NCBI GenBank assembly: GCA_009103225.1
Contig: RHPI01000773.1
Span: forward strand, 86,003 to 150,002
Direction of reading: 5' to 3'
DNA: 64,000 bases
From: Chlorokybus atmophyticus
Lineage: Eukaryota; Plantae; Mesostigma and Chlorokybus algae
Shown: positions 568-56,959 of the stretch, in pieces
How positions within the stretch are numbered: position 1 is the first letter of the stretch
How the letters are laid out: the number at the start of each line of letters is the position of its first letter
Translations under genes and position numbers: made by a program
The notes under the pieces: model-generated
What the model saw: only the letters and a program-made list of their open reading frames with translations
Told to the model about the DNA's origin: nothing
The model's database searches: none

Positions 568-2949
568 CTACTTGCACAGCTTGCCAGCGACCCATGCGTT
601 GTTGCTAACATTGAGATCAGCGTCACCATAACACGTGTTGGCACTCCCACAACCAAAGAGCTTGCACACCTGCAGACAATGAGCAACTGTGAGACACAAG
701 TGCTTGCATGCGTGCGTGCGTGCGTGCGCGTCTATGGTGGTGGGGGAGGGGCGTGCATGCGTGCGTACATTGCTGTAGTGTCCGTCGCTGGTGTAGTACG
801 CCCAATGTGTGCATGCGAGGTTGCGCTTGCACTTGTGGCAGCATGTGTCGGCGTCGGGGACGCGGTTGATCCACTTGATGCGGGTCAGCGGGGGAGTCTT
901 CCACAAACCCGTCGACACCGGCTTCGAGCAGAAAGACTTGCACACACGCTCGCCGTTGAGACGCTTCTGCAAAAGGATTTGATACACTAAGTCAGCGAGA
1001 TGCACACACACACACACACACACATGCACTACAGCAATCACACTGACAGTGATGGCAACATACATGTTCAAAGAAGCCATGGTCACAGATGCATTGATAC
1101 CCGCCCGTCACAGGTTGGCATCGGCCGTGGGTGCCGCACGGGTTGGGTTTGCAGACTGCGTGCACACAAAGGTAGTCACAACATTGCAACCTTTGGCAAG
1201 TGACTCATGCAGTCTCACACGCATGCATGTGTCACACTACTCACCGTGACGAGTAGGTGGTGGGGGTGATGATGCTGGCGGTGGGGGTGGCGGCGGGGCT
1301 GATAGCACTGGTGCTGGTGGTGACAGTGCTGGCGGTGGGGGTGGGGGTTGTGTTGGCGGCGGTGGAGGCAGCGGCTGAGCGAGCAGAAGCACAAGAATGA
1401 GTCCATCACAGTTGCATTCAAAACTATAGACACAACCCACCACCAACCCACCTTACATACTCCGGCCCGACACGCGCCGTCCGGGCAGGGCGTCCCATCC
1501 GATTTCCCGAAACAGAACTCTGCTCAGATACATGATACAGAGTCTAAGTCGCGCACACCACACAGAGACGGATGCAACGACCAGAGCACCCACCCACCCA
1601 CCCACCCACGCACCTTGGACGATGACAGTAAACGAGCATGCTGTTTCAAGCACATTGGCCCCCGCTCCATTCTGGAACGTCTCTTGCACGGCAAGTACAC
1701 GCCCTTTGTCGCCGACCGCCGGTGTGAATGTGGCTGTTGTACGCAGCGGTGAAGCCACTCTTATCCCCGCTGTCGGTGTGATATCAAAGACACCATCCGG
1801 TGCAGGTGTGATGGAATAGAGTGGTGTGATTCTGGTAGTGTTGGCCGTGGCGGTGATGCCGAGGGTGAGGACATCCTCCACGGGGACGTTACACTGCACT
1901 CCCGTGGCTTCGCGTGTGCATTGAGGTGGGAGAGGTGTGTCAAAGCTGCACACGGGTGGCTGCGCAGATACACTCACAATCTCCACGATGAAGTCCAGCG
2001 CGTGCATGGCGGGGAGGTTGCCAACATGGTCCTCCTCCACTATCACCTGCACGGCGTAGAGCTGCCCCACCTGGGTGCTGTCTGTGGTCCAATCCAGCGT
2101 GCATGAGGGGGAGACTGTGAGTGTGTCTATTGCGCTCGGGTTGGAGGAGATGTAAGACTCGCTTGTTGCGGCACGTCGACACGTAAAGGAGTCCAGGTCT
2201 GGGTCAAGCACAGGCAACTGGATGGTGTTGTCCTCACTTGGACCAGCAACTTGGATGATGGGAGGGGAGGAGGAGACCACGCCACCAGTGTTGCCATGGT
2301 TCATGTCGATGACGGTTTGGACAAGGAAGGAGCTGTCCGGCGAGTTGGATAAAGTAGAGATGCGGCAACAATCGTTGATGTAGACTGAGTATGGGCCCGG
2401 CCCGCTGAAACTTTTTGTAATCTGTCACAAGAAGTGCAAGTCAGTCTCAGATTAGACTTGAGTCTATGTGTGTGCGTGTATGTGTGTTACCTGGGCCTGG
2501 CCGTCCACAATGTCTCGTGCGGTGTTTGTCCCCGTAACAGCGAGGTTCAAAGAGATAGCTGTGGCAGGAGAGGTGTCGCCAAAGTAGAGCGTTGTAGAGG
2601 TGAAGATGTCGCCATTGGATGGTGGCACCGTGAAGTAATAGCTCAACCTCCAGCTCTGGAGTGTAAGTGTAGCAATACTTGTAAGTGATGCACAGAGGCA
2701 GCATGCGCACGCATTATGTTGGTTGACACGTACCTGGGTGACGGTGATGATGACGTCGTAGGGGCCAGCGTTGGCGCTGGTGTCTTTGCGCCAGGACGTG
2801 AAGCTGTAGCGAAAATGGGTGGCTTGGGCTGTGCCGGCATGGCTGGCCAAAGCGACAAACGCTACAAGCCAACACCATGGCGGTGTTGTTGCTGAAGCTC
2901 TGTCTGACTTCGTCATGCTCATTGCTGCATACACAGAGCGACTTAGCAT
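568..2949 (-). CDS. Multi-exon secreted modular protein: signal peptide, Sib/integrin-beta-like N-terminal region, short Cys motif, Pro-rich linker, EGF-like domain, PAN/Apple-like C-terminal domain
   Basis: Hydrophobic signal WLVAFVALASHAGTAQA is followed by THFRYSFTSWR. The large exon reads INDCCRISTLSNSPDS...PVLDPDLDSFTCR...LYAVQVIVEE, then come EFCFGKSDGTPCPDGACRAG, poly-Pro, CKPNPCGTHGRCQPVTGGYQCICDHGFF and CCHKCKRNLACTHWAYY...CKLFG, with the stop at 568. The splice phases I checked (large exon through the EGF/PAN junction) are consistent GT-AG. The start could instead be 2922 or 2916. Confidence 0.7.
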
Positions 2950-4005
2950 GGCACGCACAGAAGAGAGACCGGTAAGGCACCTTGGGAGCAGGTGGCTGGG
3001 TGACAGCTGTTGCATTCATGCACAGCGTACAAGCATGCGCACGCCTATGCAAGTCGCCACATGCATGCAATGGACGTGTGCCAAAGACCACCAGCTTACC
3101 TTGATCAAGGCGGGCCAGGCGGCTGAGCTGCTGGCGCTGGCCTGCAGGGGCGAGAGAGGAGATGAATCTGAGAAGACTGTTCCTGCAGTGTTTTTATACC
3201 CGCGTGGCTGAGCAAGCTTTCACCCGTCGCAGAAAAACACTTAGTCAGCCCATGGTACGCAACGATACGATATGCAGGACGCTCCCTTTGCCACCCAATA
3301 GCGTCCGTCCTCCTTCTGTGGAGCTGCTTTTTGAACGATTGTCCAATAAGTTTATACGTCTTTTGAGAACCCGTCGCAAACGCACTGCAAGCTTGATGCC
3401 GTTACTACGAAACCGCCGCGTTGCTGTACAAAAAGCCAATGAGACTTCATCGGCAGTTTGCCAGGGGAGTGTGATCGAATGTTGCCGGCGCACATGCACG
3501 TAATACGACTGGTATGTGCTTGTTCCCCCGAAAACACTCCCTTACATGTATACATGACACGGGTGCCAACCAGCGGCTGTGGTGGGTAGTGTCCAGCGCT
3601 ACCCTATCAAAACACAATAATACGGTTGGCTGTACACGAGCAATAACCCAAGCGCTACACTGTGCTGTCTATCGTGCACACGCAAAGAAAGGCCTGCATG
3701 CACTGCAGCTAGAGCCTTGATAGCAATCGCTTGCGCGGTTTAAAACGTGACTAATATGCGCTAGCGGAAGGCAGTCTCACCATGATGGATACCGCGTCTT
3801 CAACTCACGAGCATCTAACGCTCGGCGAGCGCACGGGTGGCCAACAAGTCCATCAATAGGCAAATCATTCAACCTTGCGATTCAATCGCCAACGAGATCA
3901 ACGTGTCCGTCACATTTAACTTCTAGATGCGTGTTTCAAGCACGAGAAATGCATTATTTAAGCATTTAACTTTTGATTATATTAACTCCACAATTTTTCA
4001 TAATA

Positions 4006-5133: not shown

Positions 5134-5733
5134 CACCAGACTCGCGTTGCCCAAAGCCAGACTTACTTACTAAGCCTAGGCCTGCTGGTGCGCCGGTCGG
5201 ACTGGCCGGTGGCCGCTGTACACTGAGTTGCAGTGACGGTTTAGGCGGTGATTATGACTTATACCGATTGCTTTTGCCGCCTATGATAGGCGCCTGTCCT
5301 GCCAGCTCACGTCATATGCATACAACGTGCCATTGCAGGTTTTGTCTTGAGGTCATGCATCCAGCTCAAGCCAGTTCAGAAGCGATGAGGTCTGGTCTGC
5401 GCAGCTCCTACACTCACTTGTGTGTAGGATCACATCAATCAGTCATACCAAGCAGAGCAAAGCAGACCAGAGCAGAACCAGCCAGAGCATTGCTGCATGT
5501 GTGGAACTTGACATTGTAGGTGACATATTTTCCATGCAACTTGCTCGGGACAATTTATGGTGCATGTGGTATACATAGAGTTACATAGGACAGGTCTACT
5601 AGCTGCCTGCCACCCAAAGAAAGTCTCACAGAAGTCTGCAGCGTAGTCCGCTGCAGATCGCACTATGCATATATATGTACACAACCAACCAGAACACATC
5701 CTCATTATCACGCTCCTCCAACCACCACACATC

Positions 5734-8464
5734 TTATCTCTGAGTCGACACGCGCACACCATCCTGCCACTCTTCTTTCACAACCTCTCCAGATGCTCGC
5801 GTGAGCACGCCAGCTCCATGCCTCAATCCTTTGCTGAACCCACCCTTGTATCTGTCCCCGGAGGCATACACAACAGTGCCAACGCCTTCCGGGACATCAT
5901 TTTCCCACCCGCCCGTAACGCTCACCCGAGGCCACATGGGCGTAGTGACCGAGGCCGTGGCGGCGGCCGTCGAGCCACACGCCGTTGTACACGCTACCGT
6001 CGGCATAGCGGAACTCGCCACAGCCCCAGGGACGACCACGCCGCCACTCGCCATCGTACTCGCTGCCGTCCGGCCACGCCATCTTTACCCTGCCGTACCT
6101 GCCAGTAACATGTTGTGTCACAAGCGCATGCTACATGACTCGAGACTTCAGTACACACAAGCGCACATGCACACACGCATGCAAATACGCACTTGCATAC
6201 ATCACATGCAGCCGCACACATACACACACTCACAGTCATACACATCTACATGTGCACACGTGTACTCGCCTTGAGGCTCCGCGATCGCGCATGAGCAGTT
6301 CCGAGGTCCGCACTCGCAAAGGCAGCTCGCATCTGTCCTCTTCTGTTGCTGGCAGCCACCCCACACCATCATCCACTTCTTCTTCTCCCTCTCCTCTCAA
6401 ACCCACAACTTCAGCCACTGACTTCAGCCAAGCGTTGTTGGATGACAAAGCGAGCACGCCCTCCTCTTCTCCACTCGTAGAAGGCTGCCCCGCCCCAACA
6501 TCATCATCGACAACATCCCCAAGCACACCACCCGTGTATTCATCACGCCACTCATTGACATCAGCTTCCACCACTTCTTGTTGTTGTGTCAACCCAACAT
6601 CCCCGAGCCTCATAGCAATGATAGTAGCATCAATAGTGGCGTCAATGCCACTATTATCGCCGCTATCAGCTCTCTCGTGGAAGGCGAGTATCCGGCACGA
6701 GGTGGACACGTACTCCTTCAACGCGTCCACAACAACTTCACTTGTGATTGATTGAGTGTTGTTGTCGGTCACCACGCAGAGGGCGGCGTGGGCGGAGGGG
6801 AGGGCGTCCCACACAAAGGGGCTGGCGGCAGCCGAGCGCACGCACGCCGCCACATCAACGTCGTGAGTGTCATTGTTGTTGGTGTGGGTGTGGGTGTGGG
6901 TGTGGGTGTGGGTCCCGGCGTGGCCGACGTGGGCGGACACGCAGCGTGAGAGGAGGTCCCGCGCCTCATCGTTGGCGTGTGTGCTCCTCGTCAACACGTG
7001 GTCTAACGCCCTCGCGGCCCAACATGCCACCTTGTCCGCCGCTGCCATCGCCTGAGAGCCAGGTAGGTGAGAAGAGCTGATCGTGGTACCACGCTAGCAG
7101 CAATGCGTATGATGATCAACAACCGGTTGGGTTGGAACCAACTTGGGTCCTGCCGATAGCATGACGCTAACGGAGCTGTCAACATGCCATGTGTGCGCAT
7201 GCGTGCACGCACACCCTCACACGCACGCATGCGCACCCACACACGCTGATGCCCACGCACACTGATACCCGGAGATACTAGCGCGCGCGCACGTGCACAG
7301 ATACTCACACGCATGCGTGCGTTGGTGCATGCACGTGCGTGTTGGCTTGGTAGGTTCCAGCATTGTACTCACTTGCGGTAGCGTGATGTCTCGTTGCGCG
7401 ATGAGCGCATCCTGTCTCACCGTCACCACCGCGGCCCTCGCCCCCCTCACCGCCCTCGCGACCTCGCGCGCCGCCGCGGCCCGCTTGCCGCCCTCGAACC
7501 GGAACGGCTCCGCCAGCACCGCCGCCGATGGGGAAGGCGAGGAGGAGAGGCATAGGAGGAGAGAGGCGGACTCGGCGGGGTCGAGGTCGGCGGAGGCAGC
7601 CACAACGACGACGGAGGGGGAGGCGGGGTGAGGCAATGGGCGATGATCCTCTGCATGGAGGGACTGTTACGTATATACGATGAAGTGTTCGTGCGTGTGT
7701 GCACGGCCGTATGCATTGTGCGTGCGGGGGTGCGCGTGTATGCTAGCCTTCGTGTCTGTATGTGTGCACGCGCGCGCATGCATATGCCTGCGCATGCAAA
7801 TGCGTGTGTGTACGTGTGCGCCATTAGCGTGTATGCGCACGTGGGTGTGTGCCTACATGCGCATGCTCCACCTGCCTGTGCGTGCATGCGACTCTGCTGT
7901 TTGTAACTGTTGTCCCCGTCACAAATTGTATGAAGCGTTGTTCTGTACAACCCGTACCATGCAAGCTCCAATGCTGCCTCGTGCAAGCCAGATGTACCTT
8001 GCCAATCAATTCACTCAATCTCTGCGTTAGGACACACAAATACAACTGGCAAGAGTATCACAGTCTACTGCATTGTGTTTGCATTGTTTGCTTGTTTGCA
8101 ATGCGGGCTGTTAGGTTTTGTTAACAACACTGACAACACCAGGGGACAAGGTGGTGAATGAACGTGTGAGTGACTTGTTCCCTCATTGGCGCCTCTTACC
8201 TTTGGTACGCAGGGCGCTCAGGTGCGCAGCGATGGCGACGCCCCGCTTACCCACGCCTACAACGCCCCTACCACCACCACCGCCGCCGCCGCCGCCGCCA
8301 GGAGGAGGGAACGTCACAGGCTGCGGCTGAGGAGCGGCAGCAGGCGCAGCCGAGGGCGGCGGCGGCAGCGGTGGCGTTGGTACAGGTGGCGCCCCTGTCA
8401 CAGAAGGCGCAGGAGACCGCCTCCCTGCCTTCCTCCACGCCCCCGCTGCCGCCGTCGCCGCCAT
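5734..8464 (-). CDS. ARC3: Plastid division protein ARC3-like (FtsZ-like N-terminal region + C-terminal MORN repeats); apparent frameshift at ~5914
   Basis: FtsZ-like motifs VVGVGKRG and AEPFRFEGGKRAAAAREVARAVRGARAAVVTVRQDAL (cf. FtsZ PFxFEGxxR). MORN repeats WPDGSEYDGEWRRGRPWGCGEFRYADGSVYNGVWLDGRRHGLG and GWENDVPEGVGTVVYASGDRYKGGF. The N-terminus is Ala/Arg/Pro-rich and transit-like. FtsZ-like + MORN is the established ARC3 architecture. Confidence 0.8.
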
Positions 8465-8600
8465 TACCGCCAATGCCGGCGACAACGACGATGAGGACAA
8501 ACTTAGCCGTTGCCACGAACGCACGTGGTGTTGCATAACGTTTAGTATTCATTTAAAGACCGCAACTACGTTAGTTATGGTATGTGTTCCCAACGTCAGG
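8465..8600. promoter_or_regulatory. Probable bidirectional promoter between ARC3 and the CRM-HopJ gene
   Basis: Only 136 bp lie between the divergent predicted ATGs (8464 and 8601). Confidence 0.5.
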
Positions 8601-9953
8601 ATGGCGGCGGCGGCGGCGAGGTGCGTGGCGGCCTCGGCGGTGTCGGCGGCGGGCAGTAAGGGTGGAGCTCGAGCACATGATTCCCCTCCCTCTGTACCTC
8701 TGCAGAGGATACAGCCACCGCAGAAGGACGGGAATGCGGCTGAGGCGGCGAAGGAGAAGGAGCTGAGGGCGGAGGGGCTGAAGCGGACAGCCTACGTCAA
8801 TGTAGGTGAGTGATCGTATTTTGCGTTGTGTTTTGGTTTAGCTGAGTCTGCATACCAGACGAAACTTAGTGCAAAACTCAGCAACAGAAACCTCTGCTTG
8901 TTTAAGCTAGCTGTCAACTGTGTCCAGCCAACGCGTGCTCGGTGTCTCGCTTTTGTATGTTGGCTGCACGCAATGTGTCTCTGCTTTTTGTTTCGGCGTG
9001 TCTTTGCGCTGCTTTGATCGGTTGCGTGTGTCATCGAAGCGACTTTGCTACGCTTCGCACCTAAGCATGCGGTTGTGCACACGCTTTGGCATGAATACAC
9101 ATTGAGCACGCGCAACAGTCACCCGCTACAATAATGAGCATTTTGCCCGTGCGTAGTTGCATGCGCGCGTAAGTGCATGGCTGCGCGTGCGCGCGCGCGC
9201 GTGCGTGCATGTGCACACATACGTGTGGCTGTATGCGCATGCACACATGTGTGTGCGTGTTCCCGCGCGTGTATGTTCATATACGTTGCTCTCGGAAGCG
9301 ACTCGCGCTGATTGTGTTGGTTGCGATCAGGTCGGCGGGGTGTAACGCCCGAGGTCATTGCTGCTGTTCGCGAGCACTGGCGCAACACCCGCGTTGCCAA
9401 GCTTCGTTGCAACGCCACCTCCGCCACCACCGACATGAAGCGCGTGGCTTTGGAGCTAGAGGAGAGGAGCGGGGGTCGCGTGGTTCACCGCGCGGGGGGA
9501 ACCGTCCTCCTCTACCGCGGGGACACGTACGAGCCGGGCCCGGCACCGAGCACATTCGACCACATACCCACGCAAGCGCTGCGCGAGGTCCTCACCCACA
9601 CCGACCGCGGGGACGCACTTGTTTTTGCACATGTCATTGCTGCCATAGAAGAGGCGTATGACTTCCACCCCGTCGCTTTTGCTGTTGGCGTGGGCGAGGA
9701 GAGCGAGCGTGTCCACAACGAGCCCGGGAGCAATGTTGGGTCCTGCAAGGTGTTGTATCTCGGGAAACTGTTGGGTCTCAGCAAGCGTAAGACCACACGT
9801 CTGTATGGGGAGCACCTGCGCCATGTTCTCGACACGCCCAACGGTGACGACCACCCCAACTTGAGGGCCTTCTTGCGACACGGATGGGACGCCGTCGAGT
9901 TTGGTGGCGTGGCTCTCACGCCAAAGGTCCAACAACAGAACCAGGAGGTGTAG
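8601..9953 (+). CDS. Two-exon gene: Ala-rich transit-like peptide + single CRM (CRS1/YhbY) RNA-binding domain + HopJ-family domain
   Basis: Exons 8601-8805 and 9331-9953 with a phase-1 GT-AG intron. CRM: YVNVGRRGVTPEVIAAVREHWRNTRVAKLR...MKRVALELEERSGGRVVHRAGGTVLLYRG. HopJ-like: FAHVIAAIEEAYDFHPVAF...NEPGSNVGSCKVLYLGKLLGLS...LDTPNGDDHPNLRAFLRHGWDAVEF. Confidence 0.85.
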
Positions 9954-10738
9954 TGAGTGGAGGCTTGGGTGCAGTTTGTGGTAGGCAGACTTGAGCGGTG
10001 AGGAGAATAGCTTTGGTTAGAGAGCATCAGGCTGGCAACTGCTTGTTGCCAAGTTCGAGGGAAAATGTAGCACGAGGGGTTCATCCATCCACGCTGTTGG
10101 ATTTTGCTTTGTGCGACAGCGAAGTACAGTGGTTGTTTAAGAACAGCGGGACATGGAAGCTTCTACGCGTCATGTAAGTTGATCACACATGCGAGGCTGA
10201 ATGTAACATTGATCGCATGCTGCCTATGTGATGTCTCCTCGTATCCCAGGCGTTGCACCCTATGCTGGCCTGAGTAAAGCGATTATAGTGTCAACTTTCT
10301 GACCCTCGCATTATGTTGTATTGCGGCAGTGAGGTGGTATTCAATGTCTATGCAATGTTGCCCAACATGTTGCAACTGCTGCGCTACCGACCAACTGTGC
10401 TACAGTTTGCGCATCCAAATGTCTGCTAAACAGGTTCGCCTGCATTGGGGGCCTGTAATAACAGCCATTTGCAACATGCCTAAGCAATGCCACCTCCTAA
10501 GTTCATTCACCATGCGACATCGCTTTCACACCCTCACACTTCGCCAAATGGCAACAATGGCCACCACCATTGAAGTGCAATGATCTGTTCTTTCTGTCAC
10601 CCAACCTCCTAACTGGTATAAAACCAAGCGCATTATTGTGGCGTCCTACAATCTATACGGTTGAATGGGAATATCATTACGTTATCAATGTGCGGGTTGG
10701 TGAGGGGGCGGACAAGGGAGACGGCGGCTTTGTTGGCC

Positions 10739-14733
<3,995 letters not shown>

Positions 14734-32671: not shown

Positions 32672-35152
32672 ATGGCTGCCTCCACAGCAGTGCTGGCTGC
32701 ACTCTGCCTGCTGCTGCTGACGGCCTCTGGTGGGGTGGCATACAATGCGACGTGCAATTGTGCTGTACTCATGATGCAGATGTGCTGAATTGGGCCTTGT
32801 GTAGGCGTTGAGGTAATATGTTGCTGTTGTTGGTAGCTACCATGCCATAAAAGTTCTCTGTCTGCTTGGCTCGCATACTCAATTGCTTTGTTTGCAGCCA
32901 GTGCGCAGAGTGTGTGGATCAATGAGTTCCACTATGACAACGCTGGCACAGACTCCGGCGAGTTTATTGACATTGGTGCGTGCACATGCATGGGGTTGTG
33001 TTGTGCATGTGACTGGGCTCTGTGCTGCATGCGTGAGCTGCACCTGTGCAGCCATGCCAAGACACATGCTTATGTGCATGCAGGTCCCGCGGGCACGTCT
33101 GCAACGGGCTACAGCATGTATCTGTACAACTGCGCAAACGCAGGGGCTGTCACTTACACTACCGTCTTGTCCTTTACTGGCGCCTTCGCCAACCCATCTG
33201 GTATGCAATGCGGTAGCACGTCCGTGTGTTGGCATTGCTGTCGTGTTTTGTGTGAATGTGCATGCACCCAACGCGCATGTGTTTGTGGAAGTGTGTGTGT
33301 AGCGTATATGCAATGCTATGCATGTGTCTGTGAACCTTCCTTTGCACAGGTGGTTATGGGTTTGCAGTCGTAAACTATCCTGCGGACGGCATACAGAGTG
33401 ATTCGCCAGATGTTTTTGCGCTGGTAGCTAACACCACCGTTGTGCACTTCCTCAGCTATAAGGGCGTGTGTGCACGGGTACATACATGTGCATGTTACAT
33501 GCGCTTTGGTCATGACCATTCCAACGCCAACCTACCGCATGCATGTGGCAGCTTCCAATGGGCCGGCTTCCGGGCTCGCTTCCACGAATATCGGCAACTC
33601 AGAGACCGGCGCAGGAGCCGTGGGCAACTCACTGCAGGTGCGTGTGACTATGCTCGACTATGCTCGAATGTGTGACGCGACTTGGAGTACATGTGGTTGA
33701 AGTGAATGTCAACAACTCGAAAATGACAGTTGAGCGGCTCTGGATGCGCTTCTACTCGTTCATGTGGGCTGCTAATCCTAGGGGCATACCCAACACATCA
33801 GGTGCAGCCAATGTCAACCGCATTCGTAAGGGGTTGATGATGATCGGTCAACCTGTCGGTTGTCAGTTGGTTGAATTGTTGCAAGCATGAAGCAATTGCA
33901 GCAATGCCGTCATATGCGTATGCGTACAGGGAAGTGAACACCGGACAGACCTTCACCCACAGTCCCTCCCCACCACCCTCTCCTCCACCGTCTCCGCCAT
34001 CGCCTCCACCCCGCCCTTCTCCACCCTCGCTACCGTCCCCTCCACCACCCTCTCCTCCGTCACCTCCTCCGCCGTCACCTCCACCACCATCCCTTCCACC
34101 TCCTCCCTCTCCTCCTCCATCCCCTTCACCACCCTCGCCTCCACCGTCACCTCCACCACCCTCTCCTCCCTCTCCTCCGCCGTCGCCACCTCCTCCCTCT
34201 CCTCCATCGTCGCCTCCACCGCCCTCTCCTCCGTCACCTCCACCGCCCTCTTCTCCTCCGTTACTTTCCCCACCGTCTCCATCTCCTCCCCCGCCACCAC
34301 CCTCCCCATCTCCGACTCCTCCCCCTCCCTCTCCTCCCCCACCACCTCCTCCCTCCTCGCCGTCTCCTCCCCCACCCTCACCTCGGCCGTCACCTCCACC
34401 ACCCTCTGCCACCTCCTCCATCACCTCCCCCTTCCTCCCCTCCCTCTCCACCACCCCCTCGGCCGCCACCGCTCTCCGCCGCCACCCAAGTCCTCTCCTC
34501 CACCACCGCCACCCGCCAGTACGTGTTGTTGTTATTGTCATTGTTGTTTTACGATGTTGTCGTGGGTGATGTTGATTACAGCTTGCATCTGCTCACTGAA
34601 TCCGGTGGTCTGGTGCACGTGCAGTTTGCTTTCCAAACCTGTGCGAAAGTCGCGGGACGTGCGTGCCCACTCAAAGCCAGAGCGACTACATTTGCACCTG
34701 CAAGCGTGGATTCTTCCTGGGGGTGAGTTTGCAATCGTGTGCCTGCTTCACGTGCGTGGTATGTGTGTATGAGTCGCAGAGCACGATAATTGAAGAATGT
34801 GTCGGTGTGCAGACGACGGCCAATGGCAAGCCCACCTGCTCGTCATATTGCTCTCAGCCGTATGGCACATACGTGTGGAGGTCGCCACCTCTGCAGCGTT
34901 TCGCCAGCCATAACAACACCGCAAGCGCAGCCGCATGATGCAACAATTACGCACCTAAACTCAGCATTGCTTCTCATAAAGCTTCCATGCGTAACTGCGT
35001 CAACAAGCGTGGCAGTGTGTGCATCAGGTGCACTGCTGACTCGTCATGCAAGTACTGGGCGTACTACACCGGCATGTAATATGCCCTTATCACGGACGCG
35101 GAGGAAACCTACGTCAAGGTAATGTGTGAAAGGAGAGACCCCCCCCTCCCCG

Positions 35153-35404: not shown

Positions 35405-36931
35405 GTGGTCGCACTGGTGATCAGCAACAGTAACAACAAGAACATGAGTTGCTGACATATTCTTATGTCTATTGCTCAAGTTTGTTTTTCAAGTGTGTAT
35501 AGCCTGCCTGAGACAAACACTGTTCGGAGATGTTCAGGTGTAAACGTAACTGATTGCGGAGGTATTGGTCAGCCAGTATGCGTGATTTTGGGAAGGGTAC
35601 TGTGCGCAAGTGTATGGCAAACATGCAGGAGCATACAAATGTACGTACATGTGTAGGCACACAACCTTGAATGATCGCTCACTTAAACATACCTACCTGC
35701 AGAGTGGACGAGAAGAGTGGAAGGGTTACGCAAGGCAGTATCAACTCCGGCATGCATGATAAGAATCGCTAGCCTTGGAATCCACTGCACCGCCACAACT
35801 CCCTACACGATATGATGTAACTGTATGATTTGACCATACAGTTATAGTGGTTAGCAAGAGGAGCAGCAGTAACGTTATCAGTTCCAAAGGCTGCATATGT
35901 CACATGAGCCTAGATGAACGTGTCTATGTGCGTGCGTGCGTGCCTGAGAAAGAAGCACATCATCACGCAGGGCGAGGGGATAGATTGAGCCTCATTGAAG
36001 TGCATAAGCGAGACAGAAGCAACATTATAGGCAGAACAGCAACTCGCATACTTAGCTGCAAGAGAGTGAGCGGAGAAGCTTTCATGGCATAGCAGAACAG
36101 GCCAGAGTCTAGCAACGCTGTGCCGGAGATGTTTACTAACGACAATTACATGATAGCGTCGCAGACGTTAACACTTGTTCGTAATAAATCTCGTGAACAA
36201 CAGCATGCCTACATGCGTCCAGCGCGAGAGAAAGAGCATGTGACATCCCGCGTTCCCAACCCTAACCTTCAGCACTAAGGTACCTGGGCACCACCGATCA
36301 GCCCGGCAGCAGCTGCGCCACGCCTTGACCCCTCCCTTCCAGAGACGAGAGTCGTCTCTCTCGCCCCATGACAGAGACGACTCCACTCCCGCTCCACTCC
36401 CCCAACGCCTTCCGCCGCCGCCCTGCCGGCTTGCAACCCAAGGGCACTGACAGCTGTCGCGTCTCAGCCCTCGCTTTCGCTCTGGCTGAGCTGAGCTCAC
36501 TGCCCGAGGCGCAGCGACAGGGGGAAGAGAGGGGTTGCAAAAGGATTGCTGCTGCTGGCGGCGAGGCGAGGCGGGGCGAGGCGTGGAAGTGTTGTGCGGT
36601 AATCCCACCCATTCATCGAGTATTGCTTAGCCTCTGCCTGCTGCTCCGGCCTGCCCCGCTGACGTAAGCTTAGACGCCCCGGAGCCGGCCGCCCAGGCAG
36701 GCTGCCCATTCCATGCCATCTTGTCGTTCAATCAGCGGTGCAAGTATGATTTATGCATGCAGCCTTTGGTAAGCCGAGCATGCTTGGATTATGCATAAGT
36801 GCATGCATGAGGAAGGTTGCGAGAGGGGCTCTGCGCCCACCCCTTAGCTGTACACCCCATTCCTTCGCACTCCACAAGCTAGAAAGGCCCGTAGTATCAC
36901 TCAGTTAGCCTCAAGCCCATACACGGCAGCG

Positions 36932-36934
<3 letters not shown>

Positions 36935-36995
<61 letters not shown>

Positions 36996-37056
36996 NNNNN
37001 NNNNNNNNNNNNNNNNNNNNNNNNNNNNNNNNNNNNNNNNNNNNNNNNNNNNNNNN

Positions 37057-37104
<48 letters not shown>
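36935..37104. repeat. (CT)n microsatellite spanning a 61-N gap, just upstream of the GNAT-like start codon
   Basis: CT runs at 36935-36995 and 37057-37104; Ns at 36996-37056. Confidence 0.95.
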
Positions 37105-37108
<4 letters not shown>

Positions 37109-37112
37109 GCAG

Positions 37113-38329
37113 ATGGCGTTCGCCCGTGCACTCTACAGCTCCATTTCCTCCGCATGTGCGGCAAAGCAGCAGCTGCGCAGCGGCATGCAGCCGGTAGCAG
37201 GCCGAAACAGAGGGTGCATCACGCAGCACGGCATCAAGCCCGCGGGCACTAGCACGTCTCTGCGAAAGCTCACCATGGCAAAAACGAAGGTGCTTCCGCG
37301 CCTCGTTGCCAGAATCACCACCTCCGCTTCCAATCAGCCGGAAGGCGACGGTGACCCTGCTGACGATGAGATTGGTGAGCTCTGCATGGTTTGGGGAATC
37401 GTTGTGTTCGTCACTCTTTGCTTCGTGTTTCACTTACTTACTTAGAGTGCTCAGTCGCTCAAACAGTGCTTGAACTGGCTTGGTTTGTCCCTCGTGCTCG
37501 TTCACAGCCAGAATTCATCTTCAACATGACAAGTCCAAGGTCAACACTTGCTACGTTGCTGTTGTCTGGTAGAAGCTATTGCAGCTGGTCAACCTGTAAT
37601 AGCTGAGCACGGTTCTTAGTTATGAGACCAGGGCACTTTGAGGTGCATGTGCTGTCATCAGGAGTCGACAATCACCTCCTGCTATAAGTTGGCATGGCTT
37701 CTCACACCCCACTGCGCGCGGAGCTGGCAGGGAACCAACTCTCCGACTGGCTCCAGCTGAAGCCTCTTGAAGGCGACTTGATCAGCACACCCCACCTCAG
37801 GTTCATCCTGAAGAATGACCTACAGTCCAAGCTTGCACGCGTGGCGTCTGATATTGATGTCGTGGACCGCTTGGTGCAGCAGCATGTGCTGCTGAATGCG
37901 GTGAGGGCCGGACGCATTACAAGAGAGAAGGCATGCGAGATGCATGAAAAAGCGATATTTTGCACGGGCCAGGTACGCATGGATTACATTCGCGGGCATC
38001 CAAACCTCCCGCAACACACAGGCGACAGCCACGTCTCCTGCACGCTGGCTGTTGCATTTGCAAGCCATCCGTCGGAGGAGACCATCAACTTGTCAGTCGA
38101 GCTTGCCATTCTCTTGCAGAGCATGGACGGGTACCACCGCAGCATCGTGTTGCCGATTGCAGTCCCAATATCGGTTTACCACATGTTTCTGTCTGGGAGT
38201 TCGGCAGGACAGGGGTGGCTGACTCAAGCAGGCTACGAAGAGATTCCTCCTGAGAAAGCACCGGAGTGGCTGAGTGGCGATCAGGTAGGCTATAGAAGAG
38301 TCAGGCCGCCGGCCTCAGATGAGCGCTAG
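37113..38329 (+). CDS. Two-exon organelle-targeted protein of unknown function with a degenerate GNAT-like C-terminus (copy 1)
   Basis: Exons 37113-37374 and 37731-38329 with a phase-1 intron. Basic, Ser/Thr/Ala-rich transit-like N-terminus. HLRFILKNDL...VSCTLAVAF...VELAILL...VYHMFLSG...WLTQAGYEEIPPEKAPEWL resembles the GNAT tail. The coding status is supported by two paralogues; the GNAT call is tentative. Confidence 0.65.
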
Positions 38330-45040: not shown

Positions 45041-48000
45041 AACGCACATGCACGTGCATGCGTGCATGGCTAACGGAGTAGTAGGGGTAGTATAGTATAA
45101 TAAATAGATTGCAAGGATTGTGGCATGCATGAGAGTGCGACACACACATGCATGAGCAGTCTACTCACCACACCATGAAGCACTCTCATTAACCACCGGG
45201 CTGCTAACCTAGCTGCTACCTACCTTCTCTACTGCCCATACCCCATTGGGCATGCATGCATGCATGCGTGCGTCATCACCTGCACATGCGCCTTGGTCAG
45301 CGGCCTTCTTGCAGCAGCAGCGGCCACACCAGCAGCAGGACTCAACGGACTCCCCCTCCTGCTTCACCCACACCCCCGCCGCCATCTCCGCAAGCCTCCT
45401 ACTGCCGTCTTGTCTGCCAGCTTAGGGCTCTGTCAGTACACGCACGCATGCATGTACGGCAGGCACGGAAACTCCCTCTGCGGCGGTGCATGTCGTGGCT
45501 GTGTGCATAATGCAGACATGCATCGGCCCTGTGGGCAGGTGAACGCACATGCACGTGCATGCGTGCATGGCTAACGGAGTAGTAGGGGTAGTATAGTATA
45601 ATAAATAGATTGCAAGGATTGTGGCATGCATGAGAGTGCGACACACACATGCATGAGCAGTCTACTCACCACACCATGAAGCACTCTCATTAACCACCGG
45701 GCTGCTAACCTAGCTGCTACCTACCTTCTCTACTGCCCATACCCCATTGGGCATGCATGCATGCATGCGTGCGTCATCACCTGCACATGCGCCTTGGTCA
45801 GCGGCCTTCTTGCAGCAGCAGCGGCCACACCAGCAGCAGGACTCAACGGACTCCCCCTCCTGCTTCACCCACACCCCCGCCGCCATCTCCGCAAGCCTCC
45901 TACTGCCGTCTTGTCTGCCAGCTTAGGGCTCTGTCAGTACACGCACGCATGCATGTACGGCAGGCACGGAAACTCCCTCTGCGGCGGTGCATGTCGTGGC
46001 TGTGTGCATAATGCAGACATGCATCGGCCCTGTGGGCAGGTGAACGCACATGCACGTGCATGCGTGCATGGCTAACGGAGTAGTAGGGGTAGTATAGTAT
46101 AATAAATAGATTGCAAGGATTGTGGCATGCATGAGAGTGCGACACACACATGCATGAGCAGTCTACTCACCACACCATGAAGCACTCTCATTAACCACCG
46201 GGCTGCTAACCTAGCTGCTACCTACCTTCTCTACTGCCCATACCCCATTGGGCATGCATGCATGCATGCGTGCGTCATCACCTGCACATGCGCCTTGGTC
46301 AGCGGCCTTCTTGCAGCAGCAGCGGCCACACCAGCAGCAGGACTCAACGGACTCCCCCTCCTGCTTCACCCACACCCCCGCCGCCATCTCCGCAAGCCTC
46401 CTACTGCCGTCTTGTCTGCCAGCTTAGGGCTCTGTCAGTACACGCACGCATGCATGTACGGCAGGCACGGAAACTCCCTCTGCGGCGGTGCATGTCGTGG
46501 CTGTGTGCATAATGCAGACATGCATCGGCCCTGTGGGCAGGTGAACGCACATGCACGTGCATGCGTGCATGGCTAACGGAGTAGTAGGGGTAGTATAGTA
46601 TAATAAATAGATTGCAAGGATTGTGGCATGCATGAGAGTGCGACACACACATGCATGAGCAGTCTACTCACCACACCATGAAGCACTCTCATTAACCACC
46701 GGGCTGCTAACCTAGCTGCTACCTACCTTCTCTACTGCCCATACCCCATTGGGCATGCATGCATGCATGCGTGCGTCATCACCTGCACATGCGCCTTGGT
46801 CAGCGGCCTTCTTGCAGCAGCAGCGGCCACACCAGCAGCAGGACTCAACGGACTCCCCCTCCTGCTTCACCCACACCCCCGCCGCCATCTCCGCAAGCCT
46901 CCTACTGCCGTCTTGTCTGCCAGCTTAGGGCTCTGTCAGTACACGCACGCATGCATGTACGGCAGGCACGGAAACTCCCTCTGCGGCGGTGCATGTCGTG
47001 GCTGTGTGCATAATGCAGACATGCATCGGCCCTGTGGGCAGGTGAACGCACATGCACGTGCATGCGTGCATGGCTAACGGAGTAGTAGGGGTAGTATAGT
47101 ATAATAAATAGATTGCAAGGATTGTGGCATGCATGAGAGTGCGACACACACATGCATGAGCAGTCTACTCACCACACCATGAAGCACTCTCATTAACCAC
47201 CGGGCTGCTAACCTAGCTGCTACCTACCTTCTCTACTGCCCATACCCCATTGGGCATGCATGCATGCATGCGTGCGTCATCACCTGCACATGCGCCTTGG
47301 TCAGCGGCCTTCTTGCAGCAGCAGCGGCCACACCAGCAGCAGGACTCAACGGACTCCCCCTCCTGCTTCACCCACACCCCCGCCGCCATCTCCGCAAGCC
47401 TCCTACTGCCGTCTTGTCTGCCAGCTTAGGGCTCTGTCAGTACACGCACGCATGCATGTACGGCAGGCACGGAAACTCCCTCTGCGGCGGTGCATGTCGT
47501 GGCTGTGTGCATAATGCAGACATGCATCGGCCCTGTGGGCAGGTGAACGCACATGCACGTGCATGCGTGCATGGCTAACGGAGTAGTAGGGGTAGTATAG
47601 TATAATAAATAGATTGCAAGGATTGTGGCATGCATGAGAGTGCGACACACACATGCATGAGCAGTCTACTCACCACACCATGAAGCACTCTCATTAACCA
47701 CCGGGCTGCTAACCTAGCTGCTACCTACCTTCTCTACTGCCCATACCCCATTGGGCATGCATGCATGCATGCGTGCGTCATCACCTGCACATGCGCCTTG
47801 GTCAGCGGCCTTCTTGCAGCAGCAGCGGCCACACCAGCAGCAGGACTCAACGGACTCCCCCTCCCCCTGCTTCACCCACACCCCCGCCGCCATCTCCGCA
47901 AGCCTCCTACTGCCGTCTTGTCTGCCAGCTTAGGGCTCTGTCAGTACACGCACGCATGCATGTACGGCAGGCACGGAAACTCCCTCTGCGGCGGTGCATG

Positions 48001-50780
48001 TCGTGGCTGTGTGCATAATGCAGACATGCATCGGCCCTGTGGGCAGGTGAACGCACATGCACGTGCATGCGTGCATGGCTAACGGAGTAGTAGGGGTAGT
48101 ATAGTATAATAAATAGATTGCAAGGATTGTGGCATGCATGAGAGTGCGACACACACATGCATGAGCAGTCTACTCACCACACCATGAAGCACTCTCATTA
48201 ACCACCGGGCTGCTAACCTAGCTGCTACCTACCTTCTCTACTGCCCATACCCCATTGGGCATGCATGCATGCATGCGTGCGTCATCACCTGCACATGCGC
48301 CTTGGTCAGCGGCCTTCTTGCAGCAGCAGCGGCCACACCAGCAGCAGGACTCAACGGACTCCCCCTCCTGCTTCACCCACACCCCCGCCGCCATCTCCGC
48401 AAGCCTCCTACTGCCGTCTTGTCTGCCAGCTTAGGGCTCTGTCAGTACACGCACGCATGCATGTACGGCAGGCACGGAAACTCCCTCTGCGGCGGTGCAT
48501 GTCGTGGCTGTGTGCATAATGCAGACATGCATCGGCCCTGTGGGCAGGTGAACGCACATGCACGTGCATGCGTGCATGGCTAACGGAGTAGTAGGGGTAG
48601 TATAGTATAATAAATAGATTGCAAGGATTGTGGCATGCATGAGAGTGCGACACACACATGCATGAGCAGTCTACTCACCACACCATGAAGCACTCTCATT
48701 AACCACCGGGCTGCTAACCTAGCTGCTACCTACCTTCTCTACTGCCCATACCCCATTGGGCATGCATGCATGCATGCGTGCGTCATCACCTGCACATGCG
48801 CCTTGGTCAGCGGCCTTCTTGCAGCAGCAGCGGCCACACCAGCAGCAGGACTCAACGGACTCCCCCTCCTGCTTCACCCACACCCCCGCCGCCATCTCCG
48901 CAAGCCTCCTACTGCCGTCTTGTCTGCCAGCTTAGGGCTCTGTCAGTACACGCACGCATGCATGTACGGCAGGCACGGAAACTCCCTCTGCGGCGGTGCA
49001 TGTCGTGGCTGTGTGCATAATGCAGACATGCATCGGCCCTGTGGGCAGGTGAACGCACATGCACGTGCATGCGTGCATGGCTAACGGAGTAGTAGGGGTA
49101 GTATAGTATAATAAATAGATTGCAAGGATTGTGGCATGCATGAGAGTGCGACACACACATGCATGAGCAGTCTACTCACCACACCATGAAGCACTCTCAT
49201 TAACCACCGGGCTGCTAACCTAGCTGCTACCTACCTTCTCTACTGCCCATACCCCATTGGGCATGCATGCATGCATGCGTGCGTCATCACCTGCACATGC
49301 GCCTTGGTCAGCGGCCTTCTTGCAGCAGCAGCGGCCACACCAGCAGCAGGACTCAACGGACTCCCCCTCCTGCTTCACCCACACCCCCGCCGCCATCTCC
49401 GCAAGCCTCCTACTGCCGTCTTGTCTGCCAGCTTAGGGCTCTGTCAGTACACGCACGCATGCATGTACGGCAGGCACGGAAACTCCCTCTGCGGCGGTGC
49501 ATGTCGTGGCTGTGTGCATAATGCAGACATGCATCGGCCCTGTGGGCAGGTGAACGCACATGCACGTGCATGCGTGCATGGCTAACGGAGTAGTAGGGGT
49601 AGTATAGTATAATAAATAGATTGCAAGGATTGTGGCATGCATGAGAGTGCGACACACACATGCATGAGCAGTCTACTCACCACACCATGAAGCACTCTCA
49701 TTAACCACCGGGCTGCTAACCTAGCTGCTACCTACCTTCTCTACTGCCCATACCCCATTGGGCATGCATGCATGCATGCGTGCGTCATCACCTGCACATG
49801 CGCCTTGGTCAGCGGCCTTCTTGCAGCAGCAGCGGCCACACCAGCAGCAGGACTCAACGGACTCCCCCTCCTGCTTCACCCACACCCCCGCCGCCATCTC
49901 CGCAAGCCTCCTACTGCCGTCTTGTCTGCCAGCTTAGGGCTCTGTCAGTACACGCACGCATGCATGTACGGCAGGCACGGAAACTCCCTCTGCGGCGGTG
50001 CATGTCGTGGCTGTGTGCATAATGCAGACATGCATCGGCCCTGTGGGCAGGTGAACGCACATGCACGTGCATGCGTGCATGGCTAACGGAGTAGTAGGGG
50101 TAGTATAGTATAATAAATAGATTGCAAGGATTGTGGCATGCATGAGAGTGCGACACACACATGCATGAGCAGTCTACTCACCACACCATGAAGCACTCTC
50201 ATTAACCACCGGGCTGCTAACCTAGCTGCTACCTACCTTCTCTACTGCCCATACCCCATTGGGCATGCATGCATGCATGCGTGCGTCATCACCTGCACAT
50301 GCGCCTTGGTCAGCGGCCTTCTTGCAGCAGCAGCGGCCACACCAGCAGCAGGACTCAACGGACTCCCCCTCCTGCTTCACCCACACCCCCGCCGCCATCT
50401 CCGCAAGCCTCCTACTGCCGTCTTGTCTGCCAGCTTAGGGCTCTGTCAGTACACGCACGCATGCATGTACGGCAGGCACGGAAACTCCCTCTGCGGCGGT
50501 GCATGTCGTGGCTGTGTGCATAATGCAGACATGCATCGGCCCTGTGGGCAGGTGAACGCACATGCACGTGCATGCGTGCATGGCTAACGGAGTAGTAGGG
50601 GTAGTATAGTATAATAAATAGATTGCAAGGATTGTGGCATGCATGAGAGTGTGACACACACATGCATGAGCAGTCTACTCACCACACTATGAAGCACTCT
50701 CATTAACCACCGGGCTGCTAACCTAGCTGCTACCTACCTTCTCTACTGCCCATACGCATTAGACATGCATGCATGCGTGC
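45041..50780. repeat. Near-perfect tandem array: 11 full 501-bp units (one is 504 bp) plus a partial unit
   Basis: Units start at 45041, 45542, 46043, 46544, 47045, 47546, 48050, 48551, 49052, 49553, 50054 and 50555. There is a +3 nt insertion (ccc) near 47875. The last unit carries a few substitutions. Confidence 0.97.
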
Positions 50781-55318: not shown

Positions 55319-56650
55319 CAGCCGGCGTGCATGCCATTGGCATTGACAAACAGCTGTCACGTCTCAGCCCATCTCTCTCGCTGAGCTTAGCATACTGCCT
55401 GAGGCAGAACGAGGGCAAGTGGCAGGGTAATTCAAGGGTTGCCGCTGCTGGTGAGGCGAGGCGAGGCAAGACGGCTGCGCGTTTCCCCATCCATCATCGT
55501 CCAGCGTTGCTGAGCCTCTGCGCTCTGCTCAGGTCAGGCAGGCTGCCCTGCCTTCCTTGCTTGGGGCTTTGCCATCTGTTGCCATATATTGTCGTTCAGT
55601 CAGCGGTACAAGCATGATCCATGCATGCAGTCCTTAGTCCGTAACCTGTGCATGCATGATTCATGCAGGAGTGCATGCATGAGGGAGGTTGCGAGAGGGG
55701 CGCTGCGCCCCTTGTATGAATACCTTCCCTCCCACTCCACAAGCTAGATAGGCCCATAGCACCACTCACTTAGGCCCATGCACAGCATCATACTCTGTCC
55801 CTCACGCAGATGGCATTCGCCCGGGCAGTCTACAGCTCAACTGCCCTGGCACGTGCTGCGCAGCAGCTGCGGAGCATCATGCAGCTGATAGCACCCCGAC
55901 GCAGAGGATGCTTCACGCAGCTGCGCACAAGCAAGCCTCTCCCAACCATTAGCACGCCAATGCCAAAGCTTACCATGGTATACACGAAGGTGCTCCCACG
56001 CCTCCTCGCCACCTCCGCTTCCAATCAACCGCAAGGCGACGGTGACCGTGCTGAGGATGCCGATGCTGATGATTATGAAGTTGGTAAGCTTTGCATGGTG
56101 TGGGAGTCATTATATTCAGTCACTCTATCTGCTTCGTGTTTTGCTTCAAATGCTCAATCGCTCAAACACTACTTGGGTTGGCTTGATACCTCCCTCGTGC
56201 AGCCACATTGCACCTGTATGTCACATGACAAGTCCGAGGTCAACAGTTCCTATACGTTGCTTTCTCTGGTGAAAGCTGCTTTAGGTAAAGCGTGGTCCAC
56301 CCAAGCTACAGTAGCTGAGCATAGTGTCCAGTAAGAGACGCTTTGTGTTGCATGTACTGTCATCGGTGCCAACAATCACCTTCCGCTCTGTTAGTTACCT
56401 ATACCGGTAGCATACCTTTCTCACACCCACTATGCGCAGTGTTGGCAGGGAAGGAATATGCCGACTGGCTCCAGCTGGAGCCTCTTTACGAACCTGAGAA
56501 AGTCCACCTCAGGTTCATCTGGAAGAGTGAGCTTGAGTCCGAGCTCGCATGCGTGGCTTCCGATGTCAGCATGGACAGCTCGCTGCAGCAGCGCATCCTG
56601 CTGAATGCGGTAAATGCCGGACGCATTACGAGAGGGACGGCGCGAGATGT
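54410..56650 (+). repeat. Segmental duplication cassette copy 2 (3'-truncated)
   Basis: Collinear similarity to 35.69-37.9 kb and 56.96-59.4 kb. Confidence 0.8.
55810..56650 (+). pseudogene. Truncated copy 2 of the GNAT-like gene
   Basis: Exon 1 is 55810-56083 (MAFARAVYSS...); exon 2 starts at 56449 (GKEYADWLQLEPL...RILLNAVNAGRITRGTARD). Homology stops abruptly at ~56650, where cassette 3 sequence soon follows. Confidence 0.7.
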
Positions 56651-56959
56651 AGTGCACGTGCATCATGTCCAAACGCATGCAACACATCACACGCATGCGT
56701 GTGCAACAGCACGTCATATATATCCAGTACACCACACCACGATTGCAGCATACCCTCTTTTGTACCACACTCACCTCTATACCACATATACGACTGAATG
56801 CGCCGCGGCACAGTCAATCACATGTGAAGGCACGCTGTGACATGCAAATGGCAAAGGCAACGCGTATGTTGCCTACTTGCATGTTTCTGTGCATGAGCAT
56901 ACATATGCCATATTCTATGTGCATACACGAGTTCCGAACCGAATTGTAAGTGTGGCACA

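What the first reader, a model, noticed from the sequence alone, without database searches (positions are those of the whole stretch)
8601..9953. CRM (group II intron/ribosome RNA-binding) domain fused to a HopJ 'type III effector'-family domain
Seen: one continuous reading frame in exon 2 joins most of a CRM domain (ending VLLYRG, ~9520) to a full HopJ-like domain (~9612-9930; N..G.N.GSCK, TP.G.DH.N.R.F...GW), behind an Ala-rich transit-like peptide. Established: plant CRM proteins act in organellar intron splicing and ribosome maturation and usually carry only CRM domains. HopJ-family proteins are small, mostly stand-alone bacterial proteins with unclear biochemistry. Inference: a Rosetta-stone fusion suggesting HopJ-like domains act on RNA or RNPs in the plastid. 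I know of no description of this architecture.
Basis: partly seen in the sequence, partly recalled or inferred. Interest (0 to 1): 0.8.

Follow-up and report, generated by a model that had tools for sequence, protein, structure and literature searches.

The report
Algal RNA-binding domain fused to HopJ
A green alga has a real, spliced gene that joins a predicted RNA-binding CRM module, of the kind plant organelles use for splicing and ribosome maturation, to a small HopJ domain of unknown job; the pairing turned up in no other searched protein, but HopJ joins many unrelated partners, so it likely rides along rather than acting on RNA itself.

Summary
One frame (9312-9953) carries Pfam CRS1_YhbY (E 5e-16) and HopJ (E 1e-27). 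A 1,081-nt contig from a run guessed to be RNA spans 8590-10195 and skips the 8806-9330 GT-AG intron, giving a 275-aa protein. The host is a green alga outside land plants. The CRM matches the first domain of CRS1/CFM2/CFM3-type proteins and keeps GxxG. The Rosetta-stone inference is weak. The fusion was seen in one species. HopJ fuses with eight other families, none RNA-binding. It is acidic, already occurs in other algae, and HopJ1 was reported as dropped or reclassified among effectors. One point favours the inference: rsmI sits near hopJ in 29 of 35 Flavobacteriales loci, but that is one lineage. Most likely this is a lineage-specific organellar CRM protein with a passenger HopJ module. 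New variant of a known kind; interest 0.38.

The parts
8590..8600 (+). 5' end of the transcript contig (the true start may lie further upstream; an in-frame ATG exists at 8577)
8601..8805 (+). Coding exon 1: Ala/Ser-rich N-terminus, then the first helix and strand of the CRM domain
8601..8678 (+). Putative organellar targeting peptide (residues 1-26, no acidic residue; 12 Ala and 4 Ser in the first 30); inferred, no predictor was available
8757..9521 (+). Single complete CRM domain, split by the intron (8757-8805 + 9331-9521); GxxG loop (GRRG) at 8805 + 9331-9341; best match is the first CRM of CRS1/CFM2/CFM3-type proteins
8806..9330 (+). 525-nt phase-1 GT-AG intron
9331..9953 (+). Coding exon 2: rest of CRM, linker, HopJ domain, stop TAG at 9951-9953
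9522..9566 (+). Pro-rich linker of about 15 aa, the least confident part of the model
9567..9926 (+). Complete HopJ-family (PF08888) domain with the near-invariant Asn, Gly, Ser, Lys (9732-9749) and His, Asn, Arg (9852-9866) kept
9954..10195 (+). 3' untranslated region as far as the contig reaches

Best explanation
This is a spliced nuclear gene of a green alga for a 275-aa protein that is likely imported into an organelle (probably the plastid), where its single CRM domain is predicted to bind structured RNA (rRNA precursor or an intron) while the HopJ domain likely works as an independent, acidic passenger module that does not contact RNA. SHOWN: gene structure, transcript, both domains intact in sequence and predicted fold, CRM of CRS1-subfamily first-domain type with GxxG, host-like codon use in both halves, many other fusion partners of HopJ. 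INFERRED: import, RNA binding, and origin by a lineage-specific fusion of a CRM gene with an algal HopJ gene so that both share one targeting peptide. INFERRED, weakly: the conserved polar residues (Asn-x-Gly-Ser-x-Lys and His-x-Asn-x-Arg) bind a small ligand, making HopJ an accessory domain like the structurally similar non-catalytic N-terminal part of some DapD enzymes.
For: The CRM aligns without a break across the splice to the first CRM of 26 of 26 multi-CRM hits (first domain best in each, 39-61 bits). It folds like YhbY, its exon-2 part is basic (+6), and GxxG contributes to RNA binding (PMC9275481 passage). The HopJ half is net -3; 104 of 106 stand-alone HopJ proteins are net negative, median -6, maximum 0. 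Other HopJ partners are Dabb, GHMP kinase, DUF1244, SelR, CN_hydrolase, VF530 and 4HBT (8 of 124 HopJ hits) and MoaE. Only VF530 is described as nucleic-acid binding, and as DNA-binding. Seven hits are tandem repeats. Named algal homologues have 43-102 residues before the domain. GC3 is 0.78 (CRM), 0.71 (HopJ) and 0.73 (control exon), p 0.30 and 0.63. [quoted passage not shown]
Against: No localisation, binding or genetic data. The acid-free N-terminus is only 26 aa, and the divergent neighbour's predicted start is also Ala-rich, so Ala-richness says little. rsmI (16S rRNA methyltransferase) lies within 4 kb of hopJ in 29 of 35 Flavobacteriales loci and directly upstream on the same strand in 19, which points towards ribosome maturation. 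The HopJ tree is unresolved: the window domain falls outside the 98%-supported clade holding the three named chlorophytes in a quick tree, though joining it is not rejected (AU p 0.585). Z 7.3 is in the range the tool calls common. No close relative of the host is in the databases (best 76% for a conserved neighbour), so the age of the fusion is unknown.
Confidence: 0.5

Rival explanations
1. Rosetta stone: HopJ-family domains are accessory ribosome-maturation or RNP factors, and here the CRM tethers one to organellar rRNA or introns.
For: The fusion itself. The rsmI-hopJ linkage in 29 of 35 Flavobacteriales loci. rlmD lies within 4 kb in 5 further loci and rsgA is adjacent in 1. Near-invariant His, Asn, Arg and Lys could bind phosphate (inference).
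Against: rsmI linkage is one lineage: 0 of the 45 other loci. Representatives of the 80 immediate-neighbour clusters are very mixed, mostly metabolic, transport or DNA repair. rlmD is on the opposite strand. None of eight other fusion partners is RNA-binding. The domain is acidic. The fusion was seen in one species only.
Confidence: 0.25
2. Same architecture, but the protein is mitochondrial and acts on the mitoribosome or on mitochondrial introns, like single-CRM CFM9 or the CRM-fold chain of the Polytomella mitoribosome.
For: Short N-terminus without acidic residues. The CRM model matches Polytomella mitoribosome chain 8a22_Xh (Z 7.0, rmsd 2.2, 63 aligned). Single-CRM CFM9 is mitochondrial (PMC7072668 passage).
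Against: All 26 CRM hits among the top 150 are multi-CRM proteins of CRS1-subfamily architecture; the one functionally named hit is 'CFM2, chloroplastic'. The N-terminus has only 2 Arg and 1 Lys in 30 residues.
Confidence: 0.13
3. A recent, nearly neutral chimera in which one half is decaying.
For: Seen in one genome. The HopJ half has a long end branch (1.03 against a median of 0.41) and has changed three well-conserved positions (Tyr 89% to Leu, Leu 95% to Thr, Phe 88% to Tyr).
Against: All family positions conserved at 99% or more are kept. The model is confident (pLDDT 97, rmsd 1.4 to 2qhq). The frame is intact and spliced, and codon use is uniform.
Confidence: 0.1
4. Assembly or gene-calling artefact, or bacterial contamination.
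For: The best RNA holder may be the same biological source as the assembly (caveat), and only one run holds the stretch.
Against: A single contig bridges the intron and both domains with 0 mismatches. The flanking genes are spliced eukaryotic genes. GC3 matches the host.
Confidence: 0.02

Closest known systems
CRS1-subfamily CRM proteins (CRS1, CFM2, CFM3) of land plants
   Same: The CRM is most like their first domain (about 37-43% identity over the exon-2 part; best domain in 26 of 26); GxxG loop kept; nuclear gene with an N-terminal extension.
   Different: One CRM instead of three or four (PMC7072668); 275 aa instead of 621-1313 aa; carries a non-CRM domain; algal host.
Single-CRM plant proteins (CFM4, subfamily 4; CFM9, subfamily 3) and bacterial YhbY
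   Same: One CRM domain, small size, same fold (1ln4, 1jo0, 1rq8).
   Different: Scores only 13.3 bits on the YhbY equivalog against a cut-off of 78.5 (exon-2 part only); none of the 26 CRM hits in the top 150 is single-CRM; the extra HopJ domain.
HopJ family PF08888 (VPA0580, PDB 2qhq/2qm2; P. syringae HopJ1)
   Same: Pfam hit, about 34% identity, Z 19.6, rmsd 1.4 over 113 residues; near-invariant motif residues kept.
   Different: Eukaryotic, intron-containing, fused behind a CRM; no sign of a secretion context. HopJ1's effector status is disputed.
Other HopJ fusions (Dabb-HopJ, MsrB/SelR-HopJ, MoaE-HopJ, HopJ-4HBT, DUF1244-HopJ, VF530-HopJ, HopJ inside a nitrilase or a GHMP kinase)
   Same: An intact HopJ module added to an unrelated protein.
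   Different: The partner here is the only RNA-binding family among them.

Membership tests
CRM (CRS1_YhbY) domain family | Pfam PF01985 above the curated cut-off | tested here: met
   59.1 bits against 27, on the exon-2 part alone
CRM (CRS1_YhbY) domain family | YhbY/IF3C-like fold | tested here: met
   Model residues 1-70 match 1jo0, 1rq8 and 8a22_Xh at Z 6.9-7.1; Foldseek probability 1.0 to 1ln4
CRM (CRS1_YhbY) domain family | GxxG loop | tested here: met
   GRRG across the splice junction, aligned to the GxxG of plant domains
CRM (CRS1_YhbY) domain family | Binds organellar RNA | not testable with these tools
   Needs RIP or CLIP, or in vitro binding
CRS1 subfamily (CRS1/CFM2/CFM3) | Three or four CRM domains | tested here: not met
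   One CRM; the transcript contig and stop codon leave no room for more
CRS1 subfamily (CRS1/CFM2/CFM3) | CRM sequence closest to this subfamily | tested here: met
   26 of 26 CRM hits in the top 150 are multi-CRM proteins (24 or more with 3-4 domains), first domain best; no CRM tree with subfamilies 3, 4 and CAF was built
CRS1 subfamily (CRS1/CFM2/CFM3) | Plastid targeting | tested here: inconclusive
   Composition only; no targeting predictor available
YhbY equivalog (TIGR00253) | Score above 78.5 bits, stand-alone domain | tested here: not met
   13.3 bits on the exon-2 part; the protein is fused
HopJ family (PF08888) | Pfam hit above cut-off, fold of 2qhq, conserved N-x-G-S-x-K and H-x-N-x-R | tested here: met
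Type III secreted effectors | Bacterial gene with a T3SS context and translocation | tested here: not met
   Spliced algal nuclear gene; no T3SS family among representatives of the 80 neighbour clusters of 80 bacterial homologue loci; hopJ1 reported among families discontinued or reclassified, though translocation in one strain is cited elsewhere
DapD N-terminal domain (Campylobacter/Pseudomonas type) | Common ancestry with the HopJ fold | tested here: inconclusive
   Z 7.3, rmsd 2.9, 92 aligned, 13% identity; no sequence-profile match at E up to 10

The most novel reading that the evidence does not exclude
The so-called HopJ effector family is in fact a widespread, unrecognised ribosome-maturation or RNP accessory factor (next to rsmI in Flavobacteriales, imported into algal organelles), and this algal protein is the natural fusion that aims it at organellar RNA through a CRM domain related to the land-plant CRS1/CFM2/CFM3 splicing factors.
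Probability: 0.22. Interest if true: 0.72.

Novelty: new variant of a known kind. Interest (0 to 1): 0.38.

Why it matters
The plant CRM subfamilies are described by CRM number alone (PMC7072668 passages), so a CRM of first-domain CRS1 type standing singly with a foreign domain in an alga is a new architecture. It bears on how the multi-CRM splicing factors arose. It also offers a way into PF08888, a family with a solved structure, near-invariant polar residues, about 2,500 estimated matching genome stretches and a misleading effector name but no known biochemistry. The value is limited because the fusion was seen in one species and HopJ fuses freely.

Tried and rejected
No genome is held for the window, so paralogues (stand-alone HopJ, multi-CRM genes) could not be sought in the host. 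The single-sequence word search found nothing at E 0.001 or better among 576 candidates; it missed even plain HopJ relatives, so it carries no weight. The ESM Atlas gave no usable hit. The metagenome scan gave 319 pattern matches and 0 confirmed. Runs X2 and X3 (same study label) hold next to none of the stretch (shares 0.04 and 0.00), which is uninformative. No listed holder is on record as RNA; X1 is a guess. A catalytic Cys in GSCK was considered and rejected: that column is not among those conserved at 60% or more in 130 domains. The idea that 8200-8500 is an upstream exon of this gene was rejected: it is spliced into the minus-strand neighbour (joint 7650/8200, CT..AC). Recent horizontal transfer or contamination of the HopJ half is not supported by GC3. 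The careful trees did not finish; quick trees place the window domain in no starred group. Beta-lactamase hits (E 0.08-0.76) are noise. The fold search found no enzyme fold for HopJ beyond 2qhq and DapD, which does not exclude one. Barkan et al. 2007 is not held. No complex prediction was run.

Full report
OBSERVATION. The frame 9312-9953 is open for 213 codons. Pfam finds HopJ (E 1.4e-27, residues 99-202) and CRS1_YhbY (E 5.3e-16, residues 6-69, profile positions 22-84), both above cut-off; the four other frames in that call gave one weak hit (E 0.057). Of three listed runs, only X1 holds the stretch. X1 is guessed to be RNA. In 5500-12500 it shows nine joints, eight with GT-AG-type ends. One 1,081-nt contig covers 8590-8803 and 9329-10195 without mismatch, and its joint is the only one listed in 7900-10500. 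X1 may be the same source as the assembly, so it confirms the transcript but not independent occurrence. The splice 8805/9331 gives 828 nt and 275 aa with no internal stop, and restores a complete CRM that aligns across the junction to plant domains. The GC-rich stretch at 8200-8480 is spliced into a divergent minus-strand gene whose likely ATG (8464) lies 137 bp from ours, so a further upstream exon is unlikely.

HOST. A PP2A B'' exon in the window is 76% identical to Klebsormidium nitens, the best of 1,043 hits (120 listed). In a quick tree of 18 of those 120 plus the query, it lies outside the 98%-supported group holding the land plants, on a long branch. No chlorophyte was in that tree. 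I conclude that the host is a green alga outside land plants, nearest to streptophyte algae, with the class not determined. The class matters because the plastids of Mesostigma and Chlorokybus are tabulated without group II introns while Klebsormidium has 12 (PMC4877394, passages). The RNA target could therefore be rRNA or a group I intron rather than a group II intron.

CRM HALF. Among the best 150 of 471 hits in 1.84 billion representatives, 26 are CRM proteins with 2-4 domains and 124 are HopJ proteins; none has both (Pfam on 61 + 89). The spliced CRM scores best against the first domain in all 26. The one hit with a functional name is 'CFM2, chloroplastic'. Reviews describe CRS1-subfamily proteins as having three or four CRMs, and subfamilies 3 and 4 as having one (PMC7072668, passages); GxxG contributes to RNA binding (PMC9275481, passages). 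The window protein keeps GRRG, and its exon-2 part is net +6. The model of exon 2 (pLDDT 89) matches YhbY structures and a Polytomella mitoribosome chain. It works like a CRM RNA-binding module but fails the domain-number test for the CRS1 subfamily.

HOPJ HALF. The domain alone models at pLDDT 97 and matches VPA0580 (2qhq) at Z 19.6, rmsd 1.4 over 113 residues. The only other chain with Z of 5 or more among 48,161 is the N-terminal region of Campylobacter DapD (Z 7.3, rmsd 2.9, 92 aligned; next row 2.7), with no profile match. [quoted passage not shown] Across 130 domains, His (100%), two Asn (99%), Arg (99%), Ser (94%) and Lys (90%) are conserved and kept here; the Cys of GSCK is under 60%; three well-conserved hydrophobic positions are changed in the window. 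The domain is net -3, and 104 of 106 stand-alone homologues of 100-125 aa are net negative. GC3 does not differ from the CRM half or a control exon.

HopJ is not confined to bacteria. One paper reports HopJ-annotated proteins in the diatom-symbiont compartment of a foraminifer (PMC5824892, passage). Eight of the 124 hits are fused to seven other Pfam families and seven are tandem repeats; MoaE is an eighth partner. Two earlier notes of this scan describe HopJ-DapD fusions in ultra-small bacteria; I did not check them beyond the fold likeness. On effector status, hopJ1 is among families 'discontinued as T3SE families or reclassified' as not translocated (PMC6317194, passage), and it is repressed rather than activated by HrpL in the apoplast (PMC4173789, passages). 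Against this, translocation is cited for DC3000 (bioRxiv 2022.08.26.505380, passages), and it is still listed as a core hop or T3SS gene in PMC2745422 and PMC12298160 (passages).

PHYLOGENY. Quick trees (the careful searches did not finish) place the window domain in no starred group (130 rows; 55 of 130 rows). A 16-row clade holding the three named chlorophytes has 98% support without it. I defined that group after seeing the tree and left out 3 of its 19 rows. On 32 of 130 rows, forcing the window domain into that group is not rejected (AU p 0.585; the constrained tree scored higher). The origin is unresolved and vertical inheritance is allowed.

BACTERIAL CONTEXT. Eighty loci were kept of 591 confirmed, from a quarter of the genome collection; 35 are Flavobacteriales. 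rsmI (TIGR00096 above cut-off) lies within 4 kb in 29 of those 35 and directly upstream on the same strand in 19, and in 0 of the other 45. rlmD is near but on the opposite strand in 5 loci, and rsgA is adjacent in 1. One representative of each of the 80 immediate-neighbour clusters (146 neighbours) shows very mixed functions and no T3SS family.

IS THE FUSION ELSEWHERE? A two-domain profile of 166 positions scored single domains at about 90-117 bits and the window protein at 207 (inflated, since it is in the alignment). Against 5.8 billion proteins of 36-361 aa it gave 1,700 hits. The best 120 are six tandem-HopJ proteins and 114 at 132 bits or less, none with PF01985. Longer proteins were not searched this way, the search depends on shared words, and close relatives of the host are absent, so this shows rarity rather than uniqueness. 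Literature: 'HopJ'+'CRM' 0 papers; 'HopJ type III'+'chloroplast' 1; 'HopJ'+'algae' 3; the 40 listed of 86 have no HopJ mention; some searches were seen as listings. PMC7912774 passages added nothing on algal CRM. Subscription journals, supplements (genome-annotation tables could list this gene) and InterPro architectures were not seen.

MECHANISM. Most likely (0.5) this is an imported, probably plastid, single-CRM RNA-binding protein carrying an independent HopJ module that shares its targeting peptide after a lineage-specific fusion. Gene, transcript, domains and HopJ's many partners are shown; import, RNA binding, independence of the halves and a small-ligand role are inferred. Rivals are HopJ as a ribosome or RNP accessory factor (0.25), a mitochondrial version (0.13), a decaying chimera (0.10) and an artefact (0.02).

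VERDICT. A real and apparently undescribed architecture, a new variant of a known kind. Interest 0.38; 0.72 if the ribosome-maturation reading (probability about 0.22) proves true.

Noticed in passing
window 5558-8464 (minus strand): Spliced gene head-to-head with the CRM-HopJ gene; the likely start codons are only 137 bp apart around an AT-richer patch. No Pfam hit in three of its frames.
   Followed up: partly
window 10558-13508 (minus strand): Convergent kinesin gene (Pfam Kinesin) with five joints seen in X1; kinesin-13-like by recalled motifs.
   Followed up: partly
window 1456-3015 (minus strand): Multi-exon gene with a signal-peptide-like stretch and a weak match to SIBA-E_N (integrin beta-like, E 4e-4, below cut-off), unexpected in a green alga.
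   Followed up: partly
window 45179-50584: Eleven near-identical tandem units of about 501 bp, each giving the same 131-aa open frame; satellite or repeated exon.
   Followed up: no
window 36909-38326, 55774-56837, 58954-59742: Three similar-looking open frames, apparently a local paralogue family; no Pfam hit for the two tested.
   Followed up: partly
window 32837-34566: A frame resembling a bacterial-type lamin-tail domain (recalled; no Pfam hit) upstream of a long Ser-Pro repeat, extensin- or pherophorin-like.
   Followed up: no
L002:3320-4931 and 28 other Flavobacteriales loci: Conserved tdk / rsmI - hopJ - (UDG family) - recJ neighbourhood; a lead for HopJ function.
   Followed up: partly
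model of window 9567-9929 against PDB 2rij_A: The HopJ fold's only non-family structural neighbour is the N-terminal region of Campylobacter DapD (Z 7.3).
   Followed up: partly
L078:3430-4333 and protein P0389: moaE is directly upstream of hopJ in one genome and fused to it in another protein.
   Followed up: no
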